Shown in pieces: positions 58,149-64,000 of a stretch of 64,000 nt of DNA. Under the pieces are notes generated by a model. It ran no database searches. It was given only the letters and a program-made list of their open reading frames with translations, and was not told where the DNA came from. The stretch comes from Gemmatimonadota bacterium. Lineage in GTDB: Bacteria > Gemmatimonadota > Gemmatimonadetes > Palauibacterales > Palauibacteraceae. Each line of letters begins with the position of its first letter. Position 1 is the stretch's first letter. Both the position numbers and the translations under genes were made by a program. Location of the stretch: positions 65,236 through 129,235 of the forward strand of contig JAGWBR010000003.1 in assembly GCA_021295785.1 (NCBI GenBank), in the 5' to 3' direction.

Positions 58149-58751
58149 CTAGCGGTCCAGCGGAGAGTGGGCCAGCCGCAGAAACTCCTGGCGGGTTCGG
58201 TGATCGGAACGAAACTGGCCCCGCACGGCACTGGTCACGGTCATGGAGTTCTGCTTTTCGACGCCCCTCATCATCATGCACAGGTGGGCGGCCTCGATCA
58301 CAACTCCCACGCCCTTTGGCTTGAGGATGTTCTCGATCGCGTCGGCTATCTGCTCGGTGAGCCGCTCCTGCACCTGAAGGCGTCGGGCGTACACTTCGAC
58401 AATCCGGGGAAGTTTGCTGAGGCCGACGATTCGCCCGTTGGGGATATACGCAATGTGCGCGCGGCCGAAAAAGGGCAGCATGTGGTGTTCGCAGAGGGAA
58501 TAGACCTCAATGTCCCGGACCGCCACCATGGAGTCGTGGGACCCGTCGAATACGCCCTCGCCGAGGGCTTCCTGGGCACTCTCCGAGTACCCTCCGCACA
58601 AGTAACGGAGCGACGCCGCTACTCTAGCGGGCGTGCGGACCAGTCCTTCGCGTTCGGGGTCCTCGCCCAGCAATCTCAGTTGCGAGGCAACGAGAGGTTC
58701 CAGGGGATCGCCCCCGGGGGGCGGCGCACCATTTTCGGGTGACATCTCCAC
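58149..58751 (-). CDS. folE: GTP cyclohydrolase I
   Basis: Motifs [40 protein letters not shown] (zinc-binding Cys/His), [23 protein letters not shown]. 200 aa. Confidence 0.9.
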
Positions 58752-58965: not shown

Positions 58966-61299
58966 TCACATCCTTACGATGAGATTACCGCCGGCAGGGT
59001 CGCCAGGCAACGCGCCGGCCGGCACGGGGCCCGACCCGTCGTCCGCCGGTGGCGATGCCCTGCCGATGACGGCGGCACCCCGGTCACCGGCTTCGCGGAG
59101 CCTGGCGACGACGGCCGAGGCCTGCCCGGGGGCCACTCCGAACAGAAGACCGCCCGATGTCTGGGGGTCAAACAGGAGTTCGGAGCGCACCGCGCGGAGT
59201 GGATCGCCTGCCCCGCCGCCCTGCTCCCCGGTTTCCGGGTCCACATTCCGGACAAAACGGATCTTGGCACGGAGGCGGGCGTTGTCAGGATGGAACGTGC
59301 TCCGGACTCCGGTCGCCAACAAAGGAAGCGCACCCGGCAAGGCGGGGAGAGACGCCAACCCAACCGTAACAGTGACGCCCGACGCCTCGGCCAGGGTCAT
59401 CAAGTGGCCAGCCAAGCCGAACCCGGTCACGTCGGTGGCTCCCGTCGCGCCCGCATCCCGTGCAACCCGCGCCGCGTTCCGGTTGGTGCGCACCATGGAC
59501 TCAAGCGCCGCCTGGAGCCACGCCCCGCGCGCCAGACCCAGCATGTCGCCGCGCAACACGACCCCGGTCCCCAGCGGTTTGGTGAGGATGATCTCCTGCC
59601 CGGGCAGGATTCCGCTGACGAGCAACGGCTCCTCCGCGCCCAAGAAACCCTCCACGTGGAATCCGACCGAGGTTTGCGATCCGACCACGGTGTGGCCGCC
59701 CACCAGAACGGTCCCGGTGGACGAGAGGACCTCCCGCGCCCCGCTCATTATTTGGTGCAACATCTCTTGCCGGTCGTCCGGTGTCGCCTGTTCGGGCACT
59801 GACACGACCGCCTGGGCAACTCCTGGCCGAACTCCCTTGGCCAGCACGTCCGAAACGGCGTTGGCCGCGGCAACACGCCCGAGCGTGTACGGGTCGTCCG
59901 TGAACTGGCGCACAATATCAACGCTGGCCACGACCGCCTCGCCGCCGGGAGTGCGGTAGGCGGCGGCGTCTTCCAACGGGCTCAGGCAAGGCACTATCGA
60001 GCCGGCCGCCCCCTTGGGGGAACCGAGCCGGTCGAGCACTGATTCCAGCTCGGCACGACCGAGTTTCGCCGCGCATCCACCGCAGGTCTCGTTCATGGAA
60101 GCCAGCATCGCAGCGGGACGCCGGAACTGCCGAGCCACCGCGCCGTCGGGGCCCAACACTTGGAAGCGCTTCATGAAGCGGCGGTCGATAAGGGCCTTCA
60201 GGCGCCAGGCCAGCGCACCCCCAAACACCAGTGACCCCTTTGCGCCGACCGCGCTGCCGTCACCCAGGTTGAGGAGGGTGAGGAACCGCCGCTGCGGCCG
60301 GTAGCGGGCGAACCTGCCGGACGGGCCGCCCGATCCGCCACGCAGCAAGGTCCCGGCGGCGCGGCGCAGGTTCTTGGCGAGCACTGGTCCCTGACGCACC
60401 GCGTACACACCGGCCTTGGGCACCCACGGGGCGACCTCCAACGCGGCGCAGTCCCCCACCGCGAACACCCTCGGATGCCCTCTGGCCTGGAGGGTCGGCC
60501 CCACCAAGACAAATCCGGCCGAATCCACCGCGAGTTCGCCCGGATCGAACCCGGCGGGCGGCGCGGCACCGGTGGTCCACAGCACGACCCTGGCTCGCTC
60601 AAACGCGGGAGTCGGCTCAGACGACGACCGGGACCACTCCAAACTCACGCCGTCGCGAGAGACCGCGCGAACCCGGCAGGACGTCAGAACCCTGATCCCC
60701 CGCCGCCGGGCTTCGGCCCGAATCCGGCGGGCGACCTGCTCCGGGTATCCCGGGAGAATGCGGTCCGAGGCCTCGATGAGAGTCGCCCGGCCCGAGCGAG
60801 CCGCAACCGCGAAGGCCAGTTCCACCCCCCCCGCCCCCGCACCGACCACTACCGCACTGGCGGGCTCAGACGGGTCAAGCGCACTCAGCCTCGCCGCCAG
60901 AGCGTCCCCAAACCGACCGAGCGGCCGCGTGGGAACCACATGCTCGGCAGCGCCCGGAACATCCATACCGCGGACGGAGGACCCGATATCGAAAGACACC
61001 AAGTCATATCGCAGTGCGGGTCGATCGGCCAGCAAGATCCGGCGACCGGCCAGGTCAACGCCCCGTGCCGCGGACAAAACCACGCGTGCCCCCGCCATCC
61101 GGGCCAGGGGCACGATGTCGATTTCCAATTGTTCGGCGGAGTACTGCCCGGCCACCAACCCGGGCACCATGCCCGAATAGACGGCGACCGGCACATCCAC
61201 TACCACGGTCACCCGCACCGCCGCCGGCAGCGACCGCATGACAATGCTTTTCAACACCTGCACGTGGGCGTGACCACCACCCACCAGCACCAGGTCCAC
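58966..61299 (-). CDS. selD: Fusion protein: FAD-dependent pyridine nucleotide-disulfide oxidoreductase (NADH-dehydrogenase-like) :: selenide, water dikinase (selenophosphate synthetase)
   Basis: GTG start. VDLVLVGGGHAHVQVL...AVVVGAGAGGVELA...VFAVGDCAA are the two Rossmann FAD/NAD motifs. From about aa 440: MNETCGGCAAKLG (SelD N-terminal Cys loop, Cys not Sec), then the AIR-synthase-like fold (VVASVDIV...DPYTLGRVAAANAVSDVLAKG; TDVTGFGLAGHL). Confidence 0.85.
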   Translation of the reverse strand: MDLVLVGGGHAHVQVLKSIVMRSLPAAVRVTVVVDVPVAVYSGMVPGLVAGQYSAEQLEIDIVPLARMAGARVVLSAARGVDLAGRRILLADRPALRYDLVSFDIGSSVRGMDVPGAAEHVVPTRPLGRFGDALAARLSALDPSEPASAVVVGAGAGGVELAFAVAARSGRATLIEASDRILPGYPEQVARRIRAEARRRGIRVLTSCRVRAVSRDGVSLEWSRSSSEPTPAFERARVVLWTTGAAPPAGFDPGELAVDSAGFVLVGPTLQARGHPRVFAVGDCAALEVAPWVPKAGVYAVRQGPVLAKNLRRAAGTLLRGGSGGPSGRFARYRPQRRFLTLLNLGDGSAVGAKGSLVFGGALAWRLKALIDRRFMKRFQVLGPDGAVARQFRRPAAMLASMNETCGGCAAKLGRAELESVLDRLGSPKGAAGSIVPCLSPLEDAAAYRTPGGEAVVASVDIVRQFTDDPYTLGRVAAANAVSDVLAKGVRPGVAQAVVSVPEQATPDDRQEMLHQIMSGAREVLSSTGTVLVGGHTVVGSQTSVGFHVEGFLGAEEPLLVSGILPGQEIILTKPLGTGVVLRGDMLGLARGAWLQAALESMVRTNRNAARVARDAGATGATDVTGFGLAGHLMTLAEASGVTVTVGLASLPALPGALPLLATGVRSTFHPDNARLRAKIRFVRNVDPETGEQGGGAGDPLRAVRSELLFDPQTSGGLLFGVAPGQASAVVARLREAGDRGAAVIGRASPPADDGSGPVPAGALPGDPAGGNLIVRM

Positions 61300-61339: not shown

Positions 61340-63736
61340 TCAGAACGTCAACTGGTAGGCCAGGCGGATGTCGCGGCCCCGCATCGGTGCAATGTCCTTG
61401 ATGTACGAAGTGTGCATGCGTCCTTCCGCGTTGGTCAGATTCCGTCCGGACAGGACGATCCCGTGCGACATTCTGCCCGAAATGATCGTGTACATGGCCC
61501 GCACGTCGAACATGGTGAAACCGTCGGTCTCGGTCTCGAAATCCGCGAGGCGGTCCTGTGCCGCCGTGGTCCGCATTCCGAACCGGCCGGCCAGGGCGCC
61601 CGACTCAAATGCGAGCCCCGCTCCAAACCGGGTCGGGGTGATGCGGGGCAAGGGATCACCCGTATCCGAGTTCTCCGCTCGCACCATATCCATGGACGCG
61701 TCCAGCGTCACCCGTGCGCCGGGGTGGTTGTGGTAGATGTCATATTCGGCCTGGGCCTCCACTCCGGTGAAACTGGCACCGGCCTGGGACCACAGCACGA
61801 CGGGCAAATGGTCTTCTTCTTCGCCGGTGTACGCCTGATGAATGAAACCGTCAAACGACGTGGTGAAGAAGTTGACCCTGCCGCGGAGCCCCTCGGTAGT
61901 CAGGCGCAGAGACGCATCGAAAGTAAGGCCAATCTCCGGCTCAAGAGTGGCGTCGCCGGTCTCAAACACCAGCGACGCAAGGTGGGGTCCGTCGGCGTAA
62001 AGTTCCTCGGCAGTGGGAAGTTTGGCCGAACGGCTGGCGTTCACCAGGAAGGAAAAATTGTCGGTCAAGGGCAACCGACCGCCCACCGAAGCCGAAAACC
62101 CGCTGTGCACCCGTTCGGTTCCCGGTGCCTTGTTGATCCGTTGTTCGAACCTGGCACCCACTTCCATGCGAAACTGGTCGGTTACCGGGAGGGTCTCAAA
62201 CACAAACGCTCCCCAACCCTGCGTGACGTACGGTGGCACGAAGGCCTCATTGCCCACCGGCTCAAAATCCTTGTCGCCGGCCTGGAACCCGATTGAGCCA
62301 CTCGAACCACTGCCCCAGAACGAATGTTGGAGCTCGACGCGGCCTTCGATTTCGTTGTTGTAGAACTCGGTTTCGATTTCGCGCTCGTCGCCTTCGTCGA
62401 TGACCTCGAAGTGCTGATAGTCCGCGTACCCGACCCGGGCGCTCACAACCTCGTTATCACCCAGCTGCCATTCGGCCTCCATGTCCACGCGCCGCTGCTG
62501 GAGGTCAACCGACACCCCTGCTTCTTCTTCGTCGCCGTGATCGTCTTCGTCTTCCTCTTCCATCCCCTCTTCTTCGCCTTCCTCGTGGGCGTGGCCGGGC
62601 ACACCGTAGTCGCTGTCATAAGCAGACCAGGAGACGCCGATGAAGCCGCGGTCAACCACGTATGACGCGCCCAGTGCCATCCGGCTCGTCTCTACCCCCG
62701 AATTGTGGAGGGTGCCTTCGTCTTCCTCCTCCATCCCCTCTTCTTCGCCCTGTTCATCGTGGTGGGCTTCGGCTTCCCCGGGAATGGCGTATTCACCCGC
62801 GTTGCGCACGAGTCCGCTCGCATGAAAAGCCAGGTTGCCGCTGCCGGCGTCCAACCGGCCGGCGAAGTTTGTCTGGTCGTCCACCGTGCCGGCACGAGCG
62901 CTGAAGAAACCGTTCACCCCGTGCGTCGGGACGCCCCTCGGAATTCGACCGTCCTCAACGTTCACGACGCCCCCGATCGCCGACGAGCCGTACCGAAGCG
63001 TGGCCGGTCCCCGGAGAATTTCGACCTGGTCCGCCAGACCCGCCTCAACGCTGGGCGCGTGGTCGGGGCTTGAAGCCGAAGCGTCTCCAGTGCCCACTCC
63101 CGACTCGAGAATACGCACACGGTCACCACCAAGGCCCCGGATAATCGGGCGCGAGCTGCCTCCGTAGGCAGTGGAAGACACTCCGAGTCGATCGCCAAGG
63201 GCATCGCCAAGCCCGCCCTGGCCCGCACTCCTCAGGTCGTCGCCCTCAACCGCGTCGGCTGCCATGAGAAAGTCAGAAGCGACGCCCCCCGCCACCTCCA
63301 GGACCAGCGGTGCCTCATGGTAGACCCGCGAGACGGTCACCATGACCTCCGTGGTCTCTCCCCCGGCAACCGTGGCGGTTTCAAACCCCCTTCCCCACTG
63401 GTGGGAATTCGCCAGAATCGTGTACGTGCCACCAAGCAGGCCCTCAAACCGGGCTGCGTCGCCCGCCTCTGCGTGACGGGTGACGGGTCTCCGCTGACCG
63501 CCGTGCCCGTCGCCGAGCTGCAGTGCGACCGATACGTCGGCGGCGACAGATTCGCCATCCGCATTGACAACACTAACAACAAGAACGCCCTCCCCGCGGG
63601 TCTCCTGCGCAAACAAACCGACCGGAAGGGCAGCGCCCGCAATGGCCGCGGCAACCGCAATCGCCGCGGCGACAATCAACCGATCCAGAGACCCCTCGGT
63701 ATGAACTCTTGCTATTGTCTTGAACCTCATCATCAC
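61340..63736 (-). CDS. TonB-dependent outer-membrane receptor with duplicated His/Glu-rich insert
   Basis: Signal peptide AAAIAVAAAIAGAALPVGLFAQE. Carboxypeptidase-regulatory-like N-terminal domain, plug and 22-strand-barrel periodicity. C-terminal ...RGRDIRLAYQLTF (TonB_dep_Rec terminal motif). Internal acidic repeats HHDEQGEEEGMEEEDEG and HAHEEGEEEGMEEEDEDDHGDEEE. Confidence 0.85.
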   Translation of the reverse strand: MMMRFKTIARVHTEGSLDRLIVAAAIAVAAAIAGAALPVGLFAQETRGEGVLVVSVVNADGESVAADVSVALQLGDGHGGQRRPVTRHAEAGDAARFEGLLGGTYTILANSHQWGRGFETATVAGGETTEVMVTVSRVYHEAPLVLEVAGGVASDFLMAADAVEGDDLRSAGQGGLGDALGDRLGVSSTAYGGSSRPIIRGLGGDRVRILESGVGTGDASASSPDHAPSVEAGLADQVEILRGPATLRYGSSAIGGVVNVEDGRIPRGVPTHGVNGFFSARAGTVDDQTNFAGRLDAGSGNLAFHASGLVRNAGEYAIPGEAEAHHDEQGEEEGMEEEDEGTLHNSGVETSRMALGASYVVDRGFIGVSWSAYDSDYGVPGHAHEEGEEEGMEEEDEDDHGDEEEAGVSVDLQQRRVDMEAEWQLGDNEVVSARVGYADYQHFEVIDEGDEREIETEFYNNEIEGRVELQHSFWGSGSSGSIGFQAGDKDFEPVGNEAFVPPYVTQGWGAFVFETLPVTDQFRMEVGARFEQRINKAPGTERVHSGFSASVGGRLPLTDNFSFLVNASRSAKLPTAEELYADGPHLASLVFETGDATLEPEIGLTFDASLRLTTEGLRGRVNFFTTSFDGFIHQAYTGEEEDHLPVVLWSQAGASFTGVEAQAEYDIYHNHPGARVTLDASMDMVRAENSDTGDPLPRITPTRFGAGLAFESGALAGRFGMRTTAAQDRLADFETETDGFTMFDVRAMYTIISGRMSHGIVLSGRNLTNAEGRMHTSYIKDIAPMRGRDIRLAYQLTF
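62520..62790 (-). repeat. Intragenic tandem duplication (period about 180 bp) encoding His/Glu-rich acidic loop segments of the TonB-dependent receptor
   Basis: Plus-strand strings ...tcttcctcttccatcccctcttcttcgcc... (about 62545-62580) and ...tcttcctcctccatcccctcttcttcgcc... (about 62725-62760) are near-identical. Each encodes EEGEEEGMEEEDE. Confidence 0.6.
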
Positions 63737-64000
63737 GTCATCCTCCCAGGCTAATAGCCTATATTCCCAACTGCTTCCCCTTTGGGGGCTCCAAGAAACA
63801 AATCACACCTTTCCATCGTTGCGGCCGGCCCGCTCACCAAGCGATTCCGTAGTCATCGCCGTGATGGCTTGATCCGCCCCAAAACGCACCGTTGGCCCAG
63901 TCAAGGAAGATCGCGTTGATCGGCCCGGACGTGCGCGCCGAAAACGTCAGGTCATACCCCATGTCGGACAGGCGGCTCCTGACCCACGGGGACGTGGCTT

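What the first reader, a model, noticed from the sequence alone, without database searches (positions are those of the whole stretch)
62520..62790. Tandemly duplicated His/Glu-rich acidic insert inside a TonB-dependent receptor
Two near-identical approx. 45-nt DNA segments about 180 bp apart encode HHDEQGEEEGMEEEDEG and HAHEEGEEEGMEEEDEDDHGDEEE. These are compositionally extreme His/Asp/Glu stretches of the kind that form metal-capturing extracellular loops in Zn or other metal TonB receptors. Recent duplication within the gene suggests selection on metal-binding capacity, or a slippage-prone repeat that could vary in copy number between strains.
Basis: seen in the sequence. Interest (0 to 1): 0.55.

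Follow-up and report, generated by a model that had tools for sequence, protein, structure and literature searches.

The report
Zinc-receptor-like protein with twin acidic loops
The repeat is real, but it is a 34-base patch shared by two old, metal-catching surface loops of an outer-membrane zinc-type importer (a ZnuD relative) from a Gemmatimonadota bacterium, so this is an ordinary new member of a known transporter family.

Summary
The minus-strand gene 61340-63736 encodes a 798-aa TonB-dependent transporter. Two direct DNA copies (62545-62594 and 62716-62765; 50 nt, 84% identical; 34-nt core 33/34) lie 171 nt apart in frame. Both encode GEEEGMEEEDE. Codon-preserving shuffles never reach this match (0/5000), and three independent assemblies of about 99% identical strains carry both copies, so it is not an artefact.

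It is not a tandem duplication of an insert. The copies sit in two adjacent predicted extracellular loops, L2 and L3. Most of about 200 homologues from several phyla already carry Asp/Glu/His-rich inserts at both positions. Only the shared patch is specific to this lineage, most simply a short intragenic gene conversion.

The protein's closest sequence and fold match is the Neisseria zinc transporter ZnuD. All four ZnuD zinc ligands are conserved (D225, H226, E444, H585). L3 aligns with ZnuD's zinc-capturing His/Asp loop; the acidic L2 is extra.

No length variation occurs among the three strains, and no Zur or Fur box was recognised upstream.

Verdict: a new member of a known kind, of modest interest.

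The parts
61340..63736 (-). Gene for a 798-aa TonB-dependent outer-membrane transporter, ZnuD-like (GTG start; ATG codons follow at codons 2 and 3).
   Evidence: ORF list. Pfam Plug 2.6e-14 and TonB_dep_Rec_b-barrel 3.1e-32. NCBIfam ZnuD NF038289 E 1e-97, 328 bits, below the cutoff of 950. PDB ZnuD 4rdr E 1.9e-47. Foldseek ZnuD E 1.5e-46.
63608..63736 (-). Signal peptide region (aa 1-43, helix 16-36, ending ...GLFA/QE).
   Evidence: Read from the translation and the AF2 helix at 16-36. The cleavage site is inferred.
63335..63589 (-). N-terminal beta-sandwich domain (aa 50-134), CarboxypepD_reg-like; absent from Neisseria ZnuD.
   Evidence: AF2 strands 50-134. PF13620 is precomputed for most homologues. 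It did not pass E 0.01 in the window protein itself.
62942..63265 (-). Plug domain (aa 158-265).
   Evidence: Pfam PF07715, aa 158-257; alignment to ZnuD chain residues 46-147.
63059..63064 (-). D225-H226 in the plug apical loop, equivalent to ZnuD Asp99-His100 (high-affinity zinc ligands).
   Evidence: phmmer alignment SPDHA/SPDHA. Ligand list from PMC4557270. Invariant in 116 homologues and kept in 81 further homologues.
62696..62797 (-). Predicted extracellular loop L2 (aa 314-347, between barrel strands 3 and 4).
   Evidence: AF2 strands 302-313 and 348-361; pLDDT below 50 at 329-337. This is a 16-residue insertion relative to ZnuD.
62714..62764 (-). L2 acidic/His insert HHDEQGEEEGMEEEDEG (aa 325-341).
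62716..62749 (-). Copy 1 of the 34-nt shared DNA patch (GGCGAAGAAGAGGGGATGGAGGAGGAAGACGAAG on the coding strand), encoding GEEEGMEEEDE at aa 330-340.
62516..62602 (-). Predicted extracellular loop L3 (aa 379-407, between barrel strands 5 and 6), equivalent to the zinc-sensing loop 3 of ZnuD.
   Evidence: AF2 strands 364-378 and 408-424; pLDDT below 50 at 386-400. Query HAHEE 382-386 aligns with ZnuD cluster 1 (HSHEY), and query 395-405 aligns with cluster 2.
62522..62593 (-). L3 acidic/His insert HAHEEGEEEGMEEEDEDDHGDEEE (aa 382-405).
   Evidence: TRF finds a weak period-6 array at 62521-62560.
62545..62578 (-). Copy 2 of the 34-nt shared DNA patch, encoding GEEEGMEEEDE at aa 387-397. It has one synonymous difference from copy 1 in the window and none in strain L001.
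62405..62413 (-). H442-F443-E444. E444 is equivalent to ZnuD Glu340 (zinc ligand).
   Evidence: Alignment DYQHFE/DYRHDE. H442 and E444 are invariant. Ligand list.
61982..61984 (-). H585, equivalent to ZnuD His499 (zinc ligand from the loop that the ZnuD paper calls loop 6).
   Evidence: Alignment ELYADGPH/ELYAHGKH. Invariant. Ligand list.
63737..63833 (-). Intergenic leader and promoter region of about 100 nt, between a gamma-glutamyltranspeptidase gene and the receptor gene. It holds a GGGAGGA ribosome-binding site at 63741-63747 and a 6-1-6 palindrome AGGCTAATAGCCT at 63748-63760.
   Evidence: Sequence. GGT identified from L001. The palindrome is found in the window but broken by a SNP in strain L001. 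No sigma-70-like promoter, Rfam element, or Zur/Fur consensus was found.

Best explanation
The gene encodes a ZnuD-like TonB-dependent outer-membrane importer of a Gemmatimonadota bacterium; its nearest named relatives are Candidatus Palauibacter.

Two neighbouring surface loops, L2 and L3, carry flexible, disordered stretches rich in Glu, Asp and His. They most likely act together as a low-affinity 'fishing net' that collects free divalent metal, most probably Zn2+, from the medium. The metal would then pass to a buried high-affinity site formed by D225 and H226 of the plug, E444, and H585. TonB-driven movement of the plug would release it into the periplasm.

The two inserts are an old feature of this widespread family. 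They gain and lose length by expansion and contraction of short codon repeats, and their acidic/His content rises and falls together.

What is peculiar here is that a 34-nt piece of one loop's coding sequence was copied into the other, 171 nt away, before the three sampled strains diverged. The most likely route is short-patch intragenic gene conversion or template switching between two GAR-rich stretches. The copies are now drifting apart by point mutation.

Shown here: the repeat, its significance, its presence in three assemblies, the family-wide inserts, conservation of the zinc ligands, and the best sequence and fold matches. Predicted: the loop topology. Inferred: metal capture by the loops, zinc as the substrate, and the gene-conversion mechanism.
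For: Identity and fold:
- NCBIfam ZnuD E 1e-97.
- PDB ZnuD 4rdr E 1.9e-47, the next hit being 1e-7.
- AF2 model with pLDDT 87 and pTM 0.89. Its best fold matches are the ZnuD entries 4rdr, 4rdt and 4rvw (four chains) at E 1e-46 to 1e-43 and target TM-score 0.81-0.91, against 1e-31 for OprC and PhuR.

Zinc site:
- ZnuD ligands Asp99, His100, Glu340 and His499 (PMC4557270) align with D225, H226, E444 and H585.
- These are invariant in 116 aligned homologues and kept in all 81 full-length homologues from genome contigs.

Loops:
- Insert 1 lies between barrel strands 3 and 4, and insert 2 between strands 5 and 6. These are L2 and L3, both with low pLDDT, as expected for flexible loops.
- L3 aligns with ZnuD loop 3, whose two His/Asp/Glu clusters bind Cd/Zn and were proposed to capture zinc.

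Family:
- D/E/H makes up at least 40% of L3 in 113 of 119 homologues and of L2 in 78 of 119.
- L2 and L3 D+E+H fractions correlate (Spearman 0.74, n=80). So do changes between sister pairs (Spearman 0.68, p 1.4e-4, 26 pairs).

Zinc context elsewhere:
- A Fur-family regulator is the commonest neighbour family (5 of 30 loci). Four of these score best as Zur.

Patch:
- 33/34 nt in the window and 34/34 in L001.
- 0 of 5000 codon shuffles reach it.
- It is the strongest L2-L3 DNA match among 80 genes.
- The 11-residue shared peptide exceeds every within-protein (maximum 8) and cross-protein (maximum 10 of 14,042) comparison.
Against: - The score against the curated ZnuD model is 328 bits, far below its cutoff of 950. 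Identity to ZnuD is only 25-27%. This is a distant relative, not an orthologue.
- No Zur, Fur or ZnuA gene was detected in the window, and no known Zur or Fur box lies upstream (using consensus and query sequences recalled from memory).
- Gemmatimonadota neighbourhoods hold no zinc-uptake genes, although L003 has a cation-efflux gene about 1.2 kb upstream.
- The loops are Glu-dominated with few His (2 in L2, 3 in L3). Carboxylate-rich sites favour harder cations, so the captured metal need not be zinc.
- Loop topology rests on a prediction and on homology.
- The direction and mechanism of the copying event cannot be established from three nearly identical strains plus relatives at 51% identity or less.
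Confidence: 0.7

Rival explanations
1. Same transporter architecture, but the Glu-rich loops and the buried site serve a different cation from zinc: for example Co2+, Cd2+, Mn2+, Fe, Ca2+ or a lanthanide.
For: The loops are 55-62% Asp+Glu and only 9-12% His, and carboxylates favour hard cations. No Zur box or zinc-uptake gene lies nearby in any Gemmatimonadota locus. The curated ZnuD cutoff is not reached. One relative sits next to a Fur rather than a Zur gene (L040).
Against: All four zinc ligands of ZnuD are invariant across the family. ZnuD is by far the best sequence and fold match. Four proteobacterial homologues with the same loop types sit beside Zur-like regulators.
Confidence: 0.15
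2. The acidic loops are not functional metal binders. They are tolerated low-complexity surface sequence that expands by replication slippage, or varies to escape phages, bacteriocins or grazers. The shared patch is then a neutral by-product.
For: Length (2 to about 57 residues) and sequence are extremely variable across homologues, and some homologues lack both inserts. Microsatellite-like codon repeats occur in several genes. Three of 13 polymorphic sites among the three strains fall in the 68 nt of the two patches.
Against: Composition is strongly constrained to D/E/H across phyla. His is kept at the start of L3, as in ZnuD cluster 1. L2 and L3 content co-varies even between sister pairs. 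The homologous ZnuD loop binds metal in crystal structures.
Confidence: 0.1
3. The shared 34-nt stretch is chance convergence of two low-complexity sequences, or an assembly artefact.
For: Both loops are made of GAR codons, which raises the background similarity. Cross-gene L2 versus L3 exact matches reach 20 nt.
Against: 0 of 5000 codon-composition-preserving shuffles reach the observed score (31 versus a maximum of 24). The patch contains a non-repetitive GGG-ATG core. The synonymous-codon match has p = 0.006. The patch is present in three independent assemblies. At 34 nt the repeat is much shorter than typical read lengths, so it should not mislead an assembler (inference).
Confidence: 0.03
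4. The protein is a haem or haemoglobin receptor rather than a free-metal importer.
For: The second-best NCBIfam hits are haem/haemoglobin/transferrin receptor families (E 8e-29 and 1.9e-24). PhuR, ChuA and ShuA appear among the fold matches. ZnuD itself resembles haem receptors.
Against: The ZnuD match is stronger by about 70 orders of magnitude and by 15 orders in the fold search. The full Asp/His/Glu/His site is kept. Purified ZnuD does not bind haem (PMC4557270). His/acid-rich loops are the ZnuD hallmark.
Confidence: 0.03

Closest known systems
ZnuD of Neisseria meningitidis (PDB 4RDR/4RDT/4RVW; NCBIfam NF038289; Stork 2010 PMC2895646; Calmettes 2015 PMC4557270)
   Same: Both have a 22-strand barrel with a plug, and ZnuD is the best sequence and fold match. 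The four ligands of the buried zinc site are conserved. L3 begins with H-x-H-E, as in ZnuD cluster 1 (HSHEY), and ends with an acidic/His run aligned to cluster 2. The proposed mechanism is the same: loop capture, then the buried site, then TonB-driven import.
   Different: Identity is only 25-27%, and the score is far below the curated family cutoff. L3 is about 29 residues instead of about 77; it lacks the two Cys residues that form a disulfide, and it is Glu-rich rather than His/Asp-rich. A second acidic/His cluster sits in L2, which is short and plain in ZnuD. There is an extra N-terminal CarboxypepD_reg-like domain. The host is an environmental Gemmatimonadota bacterium rather than a mucosal pathogen. 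No Zur box was recognised.
Zur-regulated TonB-dependent receptors of free-living bacteria (Caulobacter crescentus ZnuK, ZnuL, ZnuM; PMC4176598)
   Same: These are environmental TonB-dependent receptors used for zinc scavenging. Caulobacterales homologues of the window protein (L028, L038, L047, L059, L077) have the same Zn-site residues, and one (L077) is next to a Zur-like gene.
   Different: Zur regulation was not shown for the window gene.
[quoted passage not shown]
   Same: It is a disordered stretch rich in His, Asp and Glu, thought to capture zinc and hand it to a high-affinity site. Both ZnuD papers draw this analogy.
   Different: It has an unrelated fold and sits in a different compartment. 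This is an analogy only.
Copper importer OprC and haem receptors PhuR, ChuA and ShuA
   Same: They are the next-best fold matches (E about 1e-31 to 1e-28). They also bind their metal or haem between the plug apex and a barrel loop.
   Different: Identity is 14-17%. OprC uses a Cys/Met/His site, and the haem receptors lack the Asp/His/Glu/His site and the acidic loops.

Membership tests
TonB-dependent transporter (TBDT) | N-terminal plug domain followed by a 22-strand beta-barrel. | tested here: met
   Pfam Plug and TonB_dep_Rec_b-barrel. AF2 model with pLDDT 87 (22 barrel strands by my count of its strand list after the plug). Fold matches only to TBDTs.
TonB-dependent transporter (TBDT) | TonB box upstream of the plug. 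| tested here: inconclusive
   The family consensus has DELVVSA just before the plug. The window protein has the diverged EAPLVLEVA at aa 141-149, in a region of low pLDDT. No dedicated test was run.
ZnuD family (NCBIfam NF038289, zinc piracy receptor ZnuD) | Score at or above the curated model cutoff (950 bits). | tested here: not met
   328.4 bits, E 1e-97, covering model positions 44-683 of 685. This is a homologue outside the curated orthologue group.
ZnuD family | Buried high-affinity zinc site Asp99/His100 (plug) + Glu340 + His499. | tested here: met
   These align with D225, H226, E444 and H585. All four are invariant in 116 homologues and kept in 81 further homologues. The test is by alignment, not by structure with metal.
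ZnuD family | His/Asp(/Glu)-rich stretches in extracellular loop 3. | tested here: met
   aa 382-405 is HAHEEGEEEGMEEEDEDDHGDEEE, lying between barrel strands 5 and 6. It aligns with ZnuD clusters 1 and 2. The differences are that it is Glu-rich, short, and has no Cys pair.
ZnuD family | Repression by Zur, or induction under zinc limitation. | tested here: inconclusive
   The 264 nt upstream show no match above about 50% to recalled Zur or Fur consensus boxes. The only palindrome (63748-63760) is broken by a SNP in the sister strain. The Zur operator of Gemmatimonadota is unknown. Four proteobacterial homologues are next to Zur-like genes.
ZnuD family | Binds and imports zinc. | not testable with these tools
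   This needs binding and uptake experiments.
Haem/haemoglobin TonB-dependent receptors (TIGR01785, TIGR01786) | Score at or above the curated cutoffs (317 and 324 bits). | tested here: not met
   86 and 100 bits.

The most novel reading that the evidence does not exclude
In a large, uncharacterised environmental branch of ZnuD-like receptors, the zinc-catching function is split over two adjacent loops, L2 and L3, which evolve as a unit. Their acidic/His content changes in step, and sequence is occasionally copied from one loop to the other by intragenic gene conversion. The window would be the clearest caught-in-the-act example. This would be a way of tuning metal-capture capacity, or metal preference, to trace-metal scarcity that has not been described for TonB-dependent transporters.
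Probability: 0.25. Interest if true: 0.4.

Novelty: new member of a known kind. Interest (0 to 1): 0.25.

Why it matters
It extends the ZnuD type of outer-membrane zinc importer, known mainly from mucosal pathogens, to Gemmatimonadota and to many other environmental phyla. In all of these the zinc ligands are intact.

It also shows that the acidic/His 'fishing' stretch can be spread over two loops instead of one. For annotation, these genes are currently labelled only 'TonB-dependent receptor' or 'iron complex outermembrane receptor protein', and could be flagged as probable zinc or divalent-metal importers.

The shared DNA patch is a small, clean example of intragenic sequence exchange between low-complexity loops. 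It does not change what is known about how such transporters work.

Tried and rejected
- **Tandem repeat or slippage array.** TRF found only weak period-6 and period-12 signals (scores 38 and 35). The two copies are separated by 137 nt that encode a beta-hairpin.
- **Copy-number variation.** Three strains at about 99% identity have identical loop lengths.
- **More strains.** An exact search for the patch in JGI metagenome contigs found nothing. A protein-guided scan found only one further strain. The next relatives are at 51% identity or less, so the event cannot be dated or given a direction. There is only a weak hint that L3 was the donor: the string HAHEEGEEE also occurs in L3 of distant homologues L028 and L029.
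- **Zur or Fur box.** Recalled consensus sequences match at chance level. Upstream regions of eight Gemmatimonadota orthologues share no palindrome. No sigma-70-like promoter and no Rfam element was found.
- **Zinc genes in the window.** tblastn with recalled E. coli Zur, Fur and ZnuA sequences found nothing significant.
- **Paralogues.** There is no second copy of this receptor in the window.
- **Family-wide gene conversion.** Within-gene L2-L3 exact DNA matches of at least 15 nt occur in 7 of 80 genes, against 0.9% of cross-gene pairs. Shared codon usage within a genome confounds this comparison, and most matches are simple codon repeats. This is not claimed as a general rule.
- **Literature.** Searches found no description of an acidic L2 or of Gemmatimonadota ZnuD-like receptors. 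The searches cover open-access text only.
Full report
**1. What is in the sequence**

The finding lies inside a minus-strand ORF, 61340-63736, of 798 aa. It has a TonB-dependent Plug domain (aa 158-257) and a beta-barrel domain (aa 409-751).

The repeat finder reports a single direct-repeat family in 62300-63000: 62545-62594 and 62716-62765, 50 nt at 84% identity, start-to-start spacing 171 nt, which is 57 codons and in frame. Read as codons, the core is 34 nt (62545-62578 and 62716-62749). Its only difference is synonymous, GAA versus GAG at codon 393. Both copies encode GEEEGMEEEDE, at aa 330-340 and aa 387-397.

The copies are dispersed, not tandem. TRF sees only weak period-6 and period-12 signals within each stretch.

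**2. Is it more than chance, and is it real?**

Both stretches are extreme in composition, so the null must preserve that. Shuffling codons within each loop gives a best ungapped match score averaging 10.8-11.8, with a maximum of 24. The observed score is 31, reached by 0 of 5000 shuffles. Given identical peptides, the chance of at most one codon difference under the gene's own codon usage is 0.006.

Among 119 homologues, the longest string shared by the two loops of one protein is 8 residues. Among 14,042 cross-protein comparisons the maximum is 10. Here it is 11.

Two other assemblies of about 99% identical strains carry both copies at the same positions: L001 (ENA ERZ18545435, 99.1% nt identity) and L087 (LXNJ01000325.1, 99.3%). 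In L001 the copies are 34/34 identical. An assembly artefact is therefore excluded.

**3. What the protein is**

- The best NCBIfam hit is the zinc receptor ZnuD (NF038289, E 1e-97, nearly full length). At 328 bits it is far below the curated cutoff of 950.
- The best solved-structure sequence match is ZnuD 4rdr (E 1.9e-47). The next hit is BtuB at about 4e-7.
- An AlphaFold2 model built on 116 sequences has mean pLDDT 87.2 and pTM 0.89.
- Foldseek against the PDB places the ZnuD entries 4rdr, 4rdt and 4rvw (four chains) on top, at E 1.5e-46 to 6.9e-43 and target TM-score 0.81-0.91. OprC and PhuR follow at 1e-31.

The ZnuD paper names Asp99, His100, Glu340 and His499 as ligands of the buried high-affinity zinc site (PMC4557270). 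In the phmmer alignment these correspond to D225, H226, E444 and H585. All four are invariant in the 116-sequence alignment. All four are also kept in every one of 81 full-length homologues recovered from genome contigs of Gemmatimonadota, Acidobacteriota, Verrucomicrobiota, Alpha- and Gammaproteobacteria and others.

**4. Where the two stretches sit**

In the model the barrel strands after the plug are 274-283, 289-299, 302-313, 348-361, 364-378, 408-424 and onward. In TonB-dependent barrels the first strand leaves the periplasm, so the connections 1-2, 3-4 and 5-6 are extracellular loops L1, L2 and L3 (established topology).

- Insert 1 (aa 325-341) is in L2.
- Insert 2 (aa 382-405) is in L3.

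Both have pLDDT below 50, as expected for flexible loops. The 57-codon spacing corresponds to the beta-hairpin between them.

Independently, L3 aligns with ZnuD loop 3. Query HAHEE (382-386) matches ZnuD cluster 1 (HSHEY), and query 395-405 matches cluster 2 (HDDDNAHAHTH). ZnuD loop 3 binds Cd/Zn at peripheral sites and was proposed to act as a 'fishing net' feeding the buried site. All ZnuD homologues examined by Stork et al. have these His/Asp stretches.

L2 is a 16-residue insertion relative to ZnuD.

**5. The inserts are old; only the patch is new**

Across 119 homologues at 40-53% identity, L2 has a median length of 21 residues and is 40% Asp+Glu. L3 has a median length of 20 residues, is 43% Asp+Glu and 15% His. 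D/E/H reaches at least 40% in 113 of 119 L3 loops and 78 of 119 L2 loops. The same holds in the 80 genome loci, with very different flavours: (DEH)n, poly-Glu, HDD repeats. A subfamily has short plain loops at both positions.

The acidic/His content of L2 and L3 correlates across genes (Spearman 0.74; His alone 0.70). Changes between 26 sister pairs also correlate (Spearman 0.68, p 1.4e-4). This argues that the two loops are selected as a pair.

The flanks of the window's L2 (AEAHHDE...EGTLHNS) resemble those of its nearest orthologues. So L2 was not created by duplication of L3. A 34-nt piece inside it is shared with L3.

At the DNA level the window and its sister strain have the strongest L2-L3 match of the 81 genes compared. 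The next cases (L034, L017, L068, L069) are weaker and mostly simple codon repeats. The simplest origin is a short-patch gene conversion or template switch between two GAR-rich stretches. The direction is unresolved.

**6. Strain comparison**

The three strains show no length difference in either loop. Thirteen sites are polymorphic in the part of the gene covered by all three strains. Three of them fall in the 68 nt of the two patches: G330D and D396E in L087, and the synonymous E393 change. About 0.4 would be expected, giving a post hoc Poisson p of about 0.01 (my calculation).

The copies are identical in L001, 33/34 in the window and 31/34 in L087. The copying therefore predates the split of these strains, and the copies are now diverging by point mutation. 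The idea of a copy-number-variable slippage repeat is not supported at this sampling depth. Over evolutionary time, however, the loops clearly change length.

**7. Regulation and context**

Only 264 nt are available upstream of the gene in the window. The upstream gene is a gamma-glutamyltranspeptidase. The intergenic region is about 100 nt and holds a GGGAGGA ribosome-binding site.

- No sigma-70-like promoter was found.
- No Rfam element was found.
- There is no match above chance to Zur or Fur consensus boxes recalled from memory.
- The only palindrome, AGGCTAATAGCCT at 63748-63760, is broken by a SNP in L001 and absent from other Gemmatimonadota orthologues.
- No Zur, Fur or ZnuA homologue was found in the window (using recalled query sequences).
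- Gemmatimonadota neighbourhoods are not zinc-related, except that L003 has a cation-efflux gene (PF01545 with the ZT_dimer domain) and a DUF411 gene within 3.5 kb upstream.

In 30 other loci the commonest neighbour family is FUR (5 loci). Four of these score best as Zur (NF008646, 110-141 bits, below the cutoff of 167) and one as Fur. This gives independent, though indirect, support for a zinc role in the wider family.

**8. Mechanism and rivals**

Most likely (about 0.7), L2 and L3 form a paired, flexible, polyanionic and His-bearing net on the barrel rim. It concentrates Zn2+ and passes it to the D225/H226/E444/H585 site, and TonB then opens the plug.

Steps shown here:
- homology and the best fold match;
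- conservation of the zinc ligands;
- family-wide composition of the loops;
- co-variation of the two loops.

Step predicted: the loop topology.

Steps inferred:
- metal capture by these loops;
- zinc as the substrate;
- gene conversion as the origin of the patch.

Rivals:
- another cation, because the loops are carboxylate-rich and no Zur link exists in this phylum (0.15);
- non-functional or antigenically variable low-complexity loops (0.10);
- chance or artefact (0.03, rejected);
- a haem receptor (0.03).

**9. Comparison with known systems, and verdict**

The protein works like ZnuD and shares its diagnostic zinc site and an acidic/His L3. It fails the curated ZnuD model cutoff. It also differs in four respects:
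- a short, Cys-free, Glu-rich L3;
- an additional acidic L2;
- an N-terminal CarboxypepD_reg-like domain;
- an environmental Gemmatimonadota host.

I file it as a distant ZnuD-like homologue, that is, a new member of a known kind. The paired-loop architecture and the intragenic patch are modest curiosities rather than a new mechanism. Interest is 0.25.

Noticed in passing
window 58966-61299 (-): Forty nucleotides downstream of the receptor gene lies a 777-aa fusion of a pyridine-nucleotide-disulphide oxidoreductase (Pyr_redox_2) with a selenophosphate-synthetase-like AIRS/AIRS_C module, which carries a CGGCAAK motif. In the orthologous Palauibacter loci L002 and L084 this gene is absent and FolE follows the receptor directly.
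   Followed up: partly
window 58149-58751 (-); L002 10787-11431; L084 9565-10209; L085 13403-14011: A GTP cyclohydrolase I gene (FolE, PF01227) stays close to the ZnuD-like receptor in distant Gemmatimonadota lineages. In L085 it sits with two PTPS/QueD genes about 4 kb away. From general knowledge, type I FolE is a zinc enzyme. Whether this linkage means anything for zinc supply was not examined.
   Followed up: no
L002 7565-7882, L084 6540-6887; also upstream of the receptor in L004, L005, L006: A small conserved ORF (105-115 aa, no Pfam hit) with an N-terminal hydrophobic segment (a signal peptide by inspection) and the motif GQHSHxDTAESPAACAVC lies directly upstream of the receptor in Palauibacter-type orthologues. 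It is missing from the window, where the gamma-glutamyltranspeptidase gene abuts the receptor; tblastn of the window finds nothing. It could be a metal-related partner protein.
   Followed up: partly
window 63748-63760: A perfect 6-1-6 palindrome, AGGCTAATAGCCT, lies immediately upstream of the ribosome-binding site of the receptor gene. One arm carries a SNP in the 99% identical strain L001, and the palindrome is not seen in other orthologues. Its function, if any, is unknown.
   Followed up: partly
L023 3319-5366, L033 8062-10142, L046 4615-6389 (Gammaproteobacteria / Lysobacteraceae): In three homologous loci the receptor is followed on the opposite strand by a 430-540-aa protein and then a Zur-like regulator. 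Three neighbour ORFs in the 30-locus set carry an AstE/AspA-type (succinylglutamate desuccinylase/aspartoacylase) domain, and these three score weakly as DoeB-like deacetylases in NCBIfam, so they are probably the same proteins. This looks like a conserved three-gene arrangement.
   Followed up: partly
window 62545-62578 and 62716-62749, compared with L001 and L087: Among the three roughly 99% identical strains, 3 of 13 polymorphic sites in the receptor gene fall within the 68 nt of the two patches, and two of them change the amino acid (G330D, D396E). This suggests faster evolution of the loop tips than of the rest of the gene. It is a post hoc observation on very few sites.
   Followed up: partly
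window 62522-62764, loop codons: Glu codons inside the two inserts are mostly GAA (15 GAA to 6 GAG), whereas the rest of the gene prefers GAG (20 GAA to 33 GAG) in a window of 66% G+C. This fits growth of the inserts by repetition of a few GAA-containing units. The two patch copies are not independent data points.
   Followed up: no
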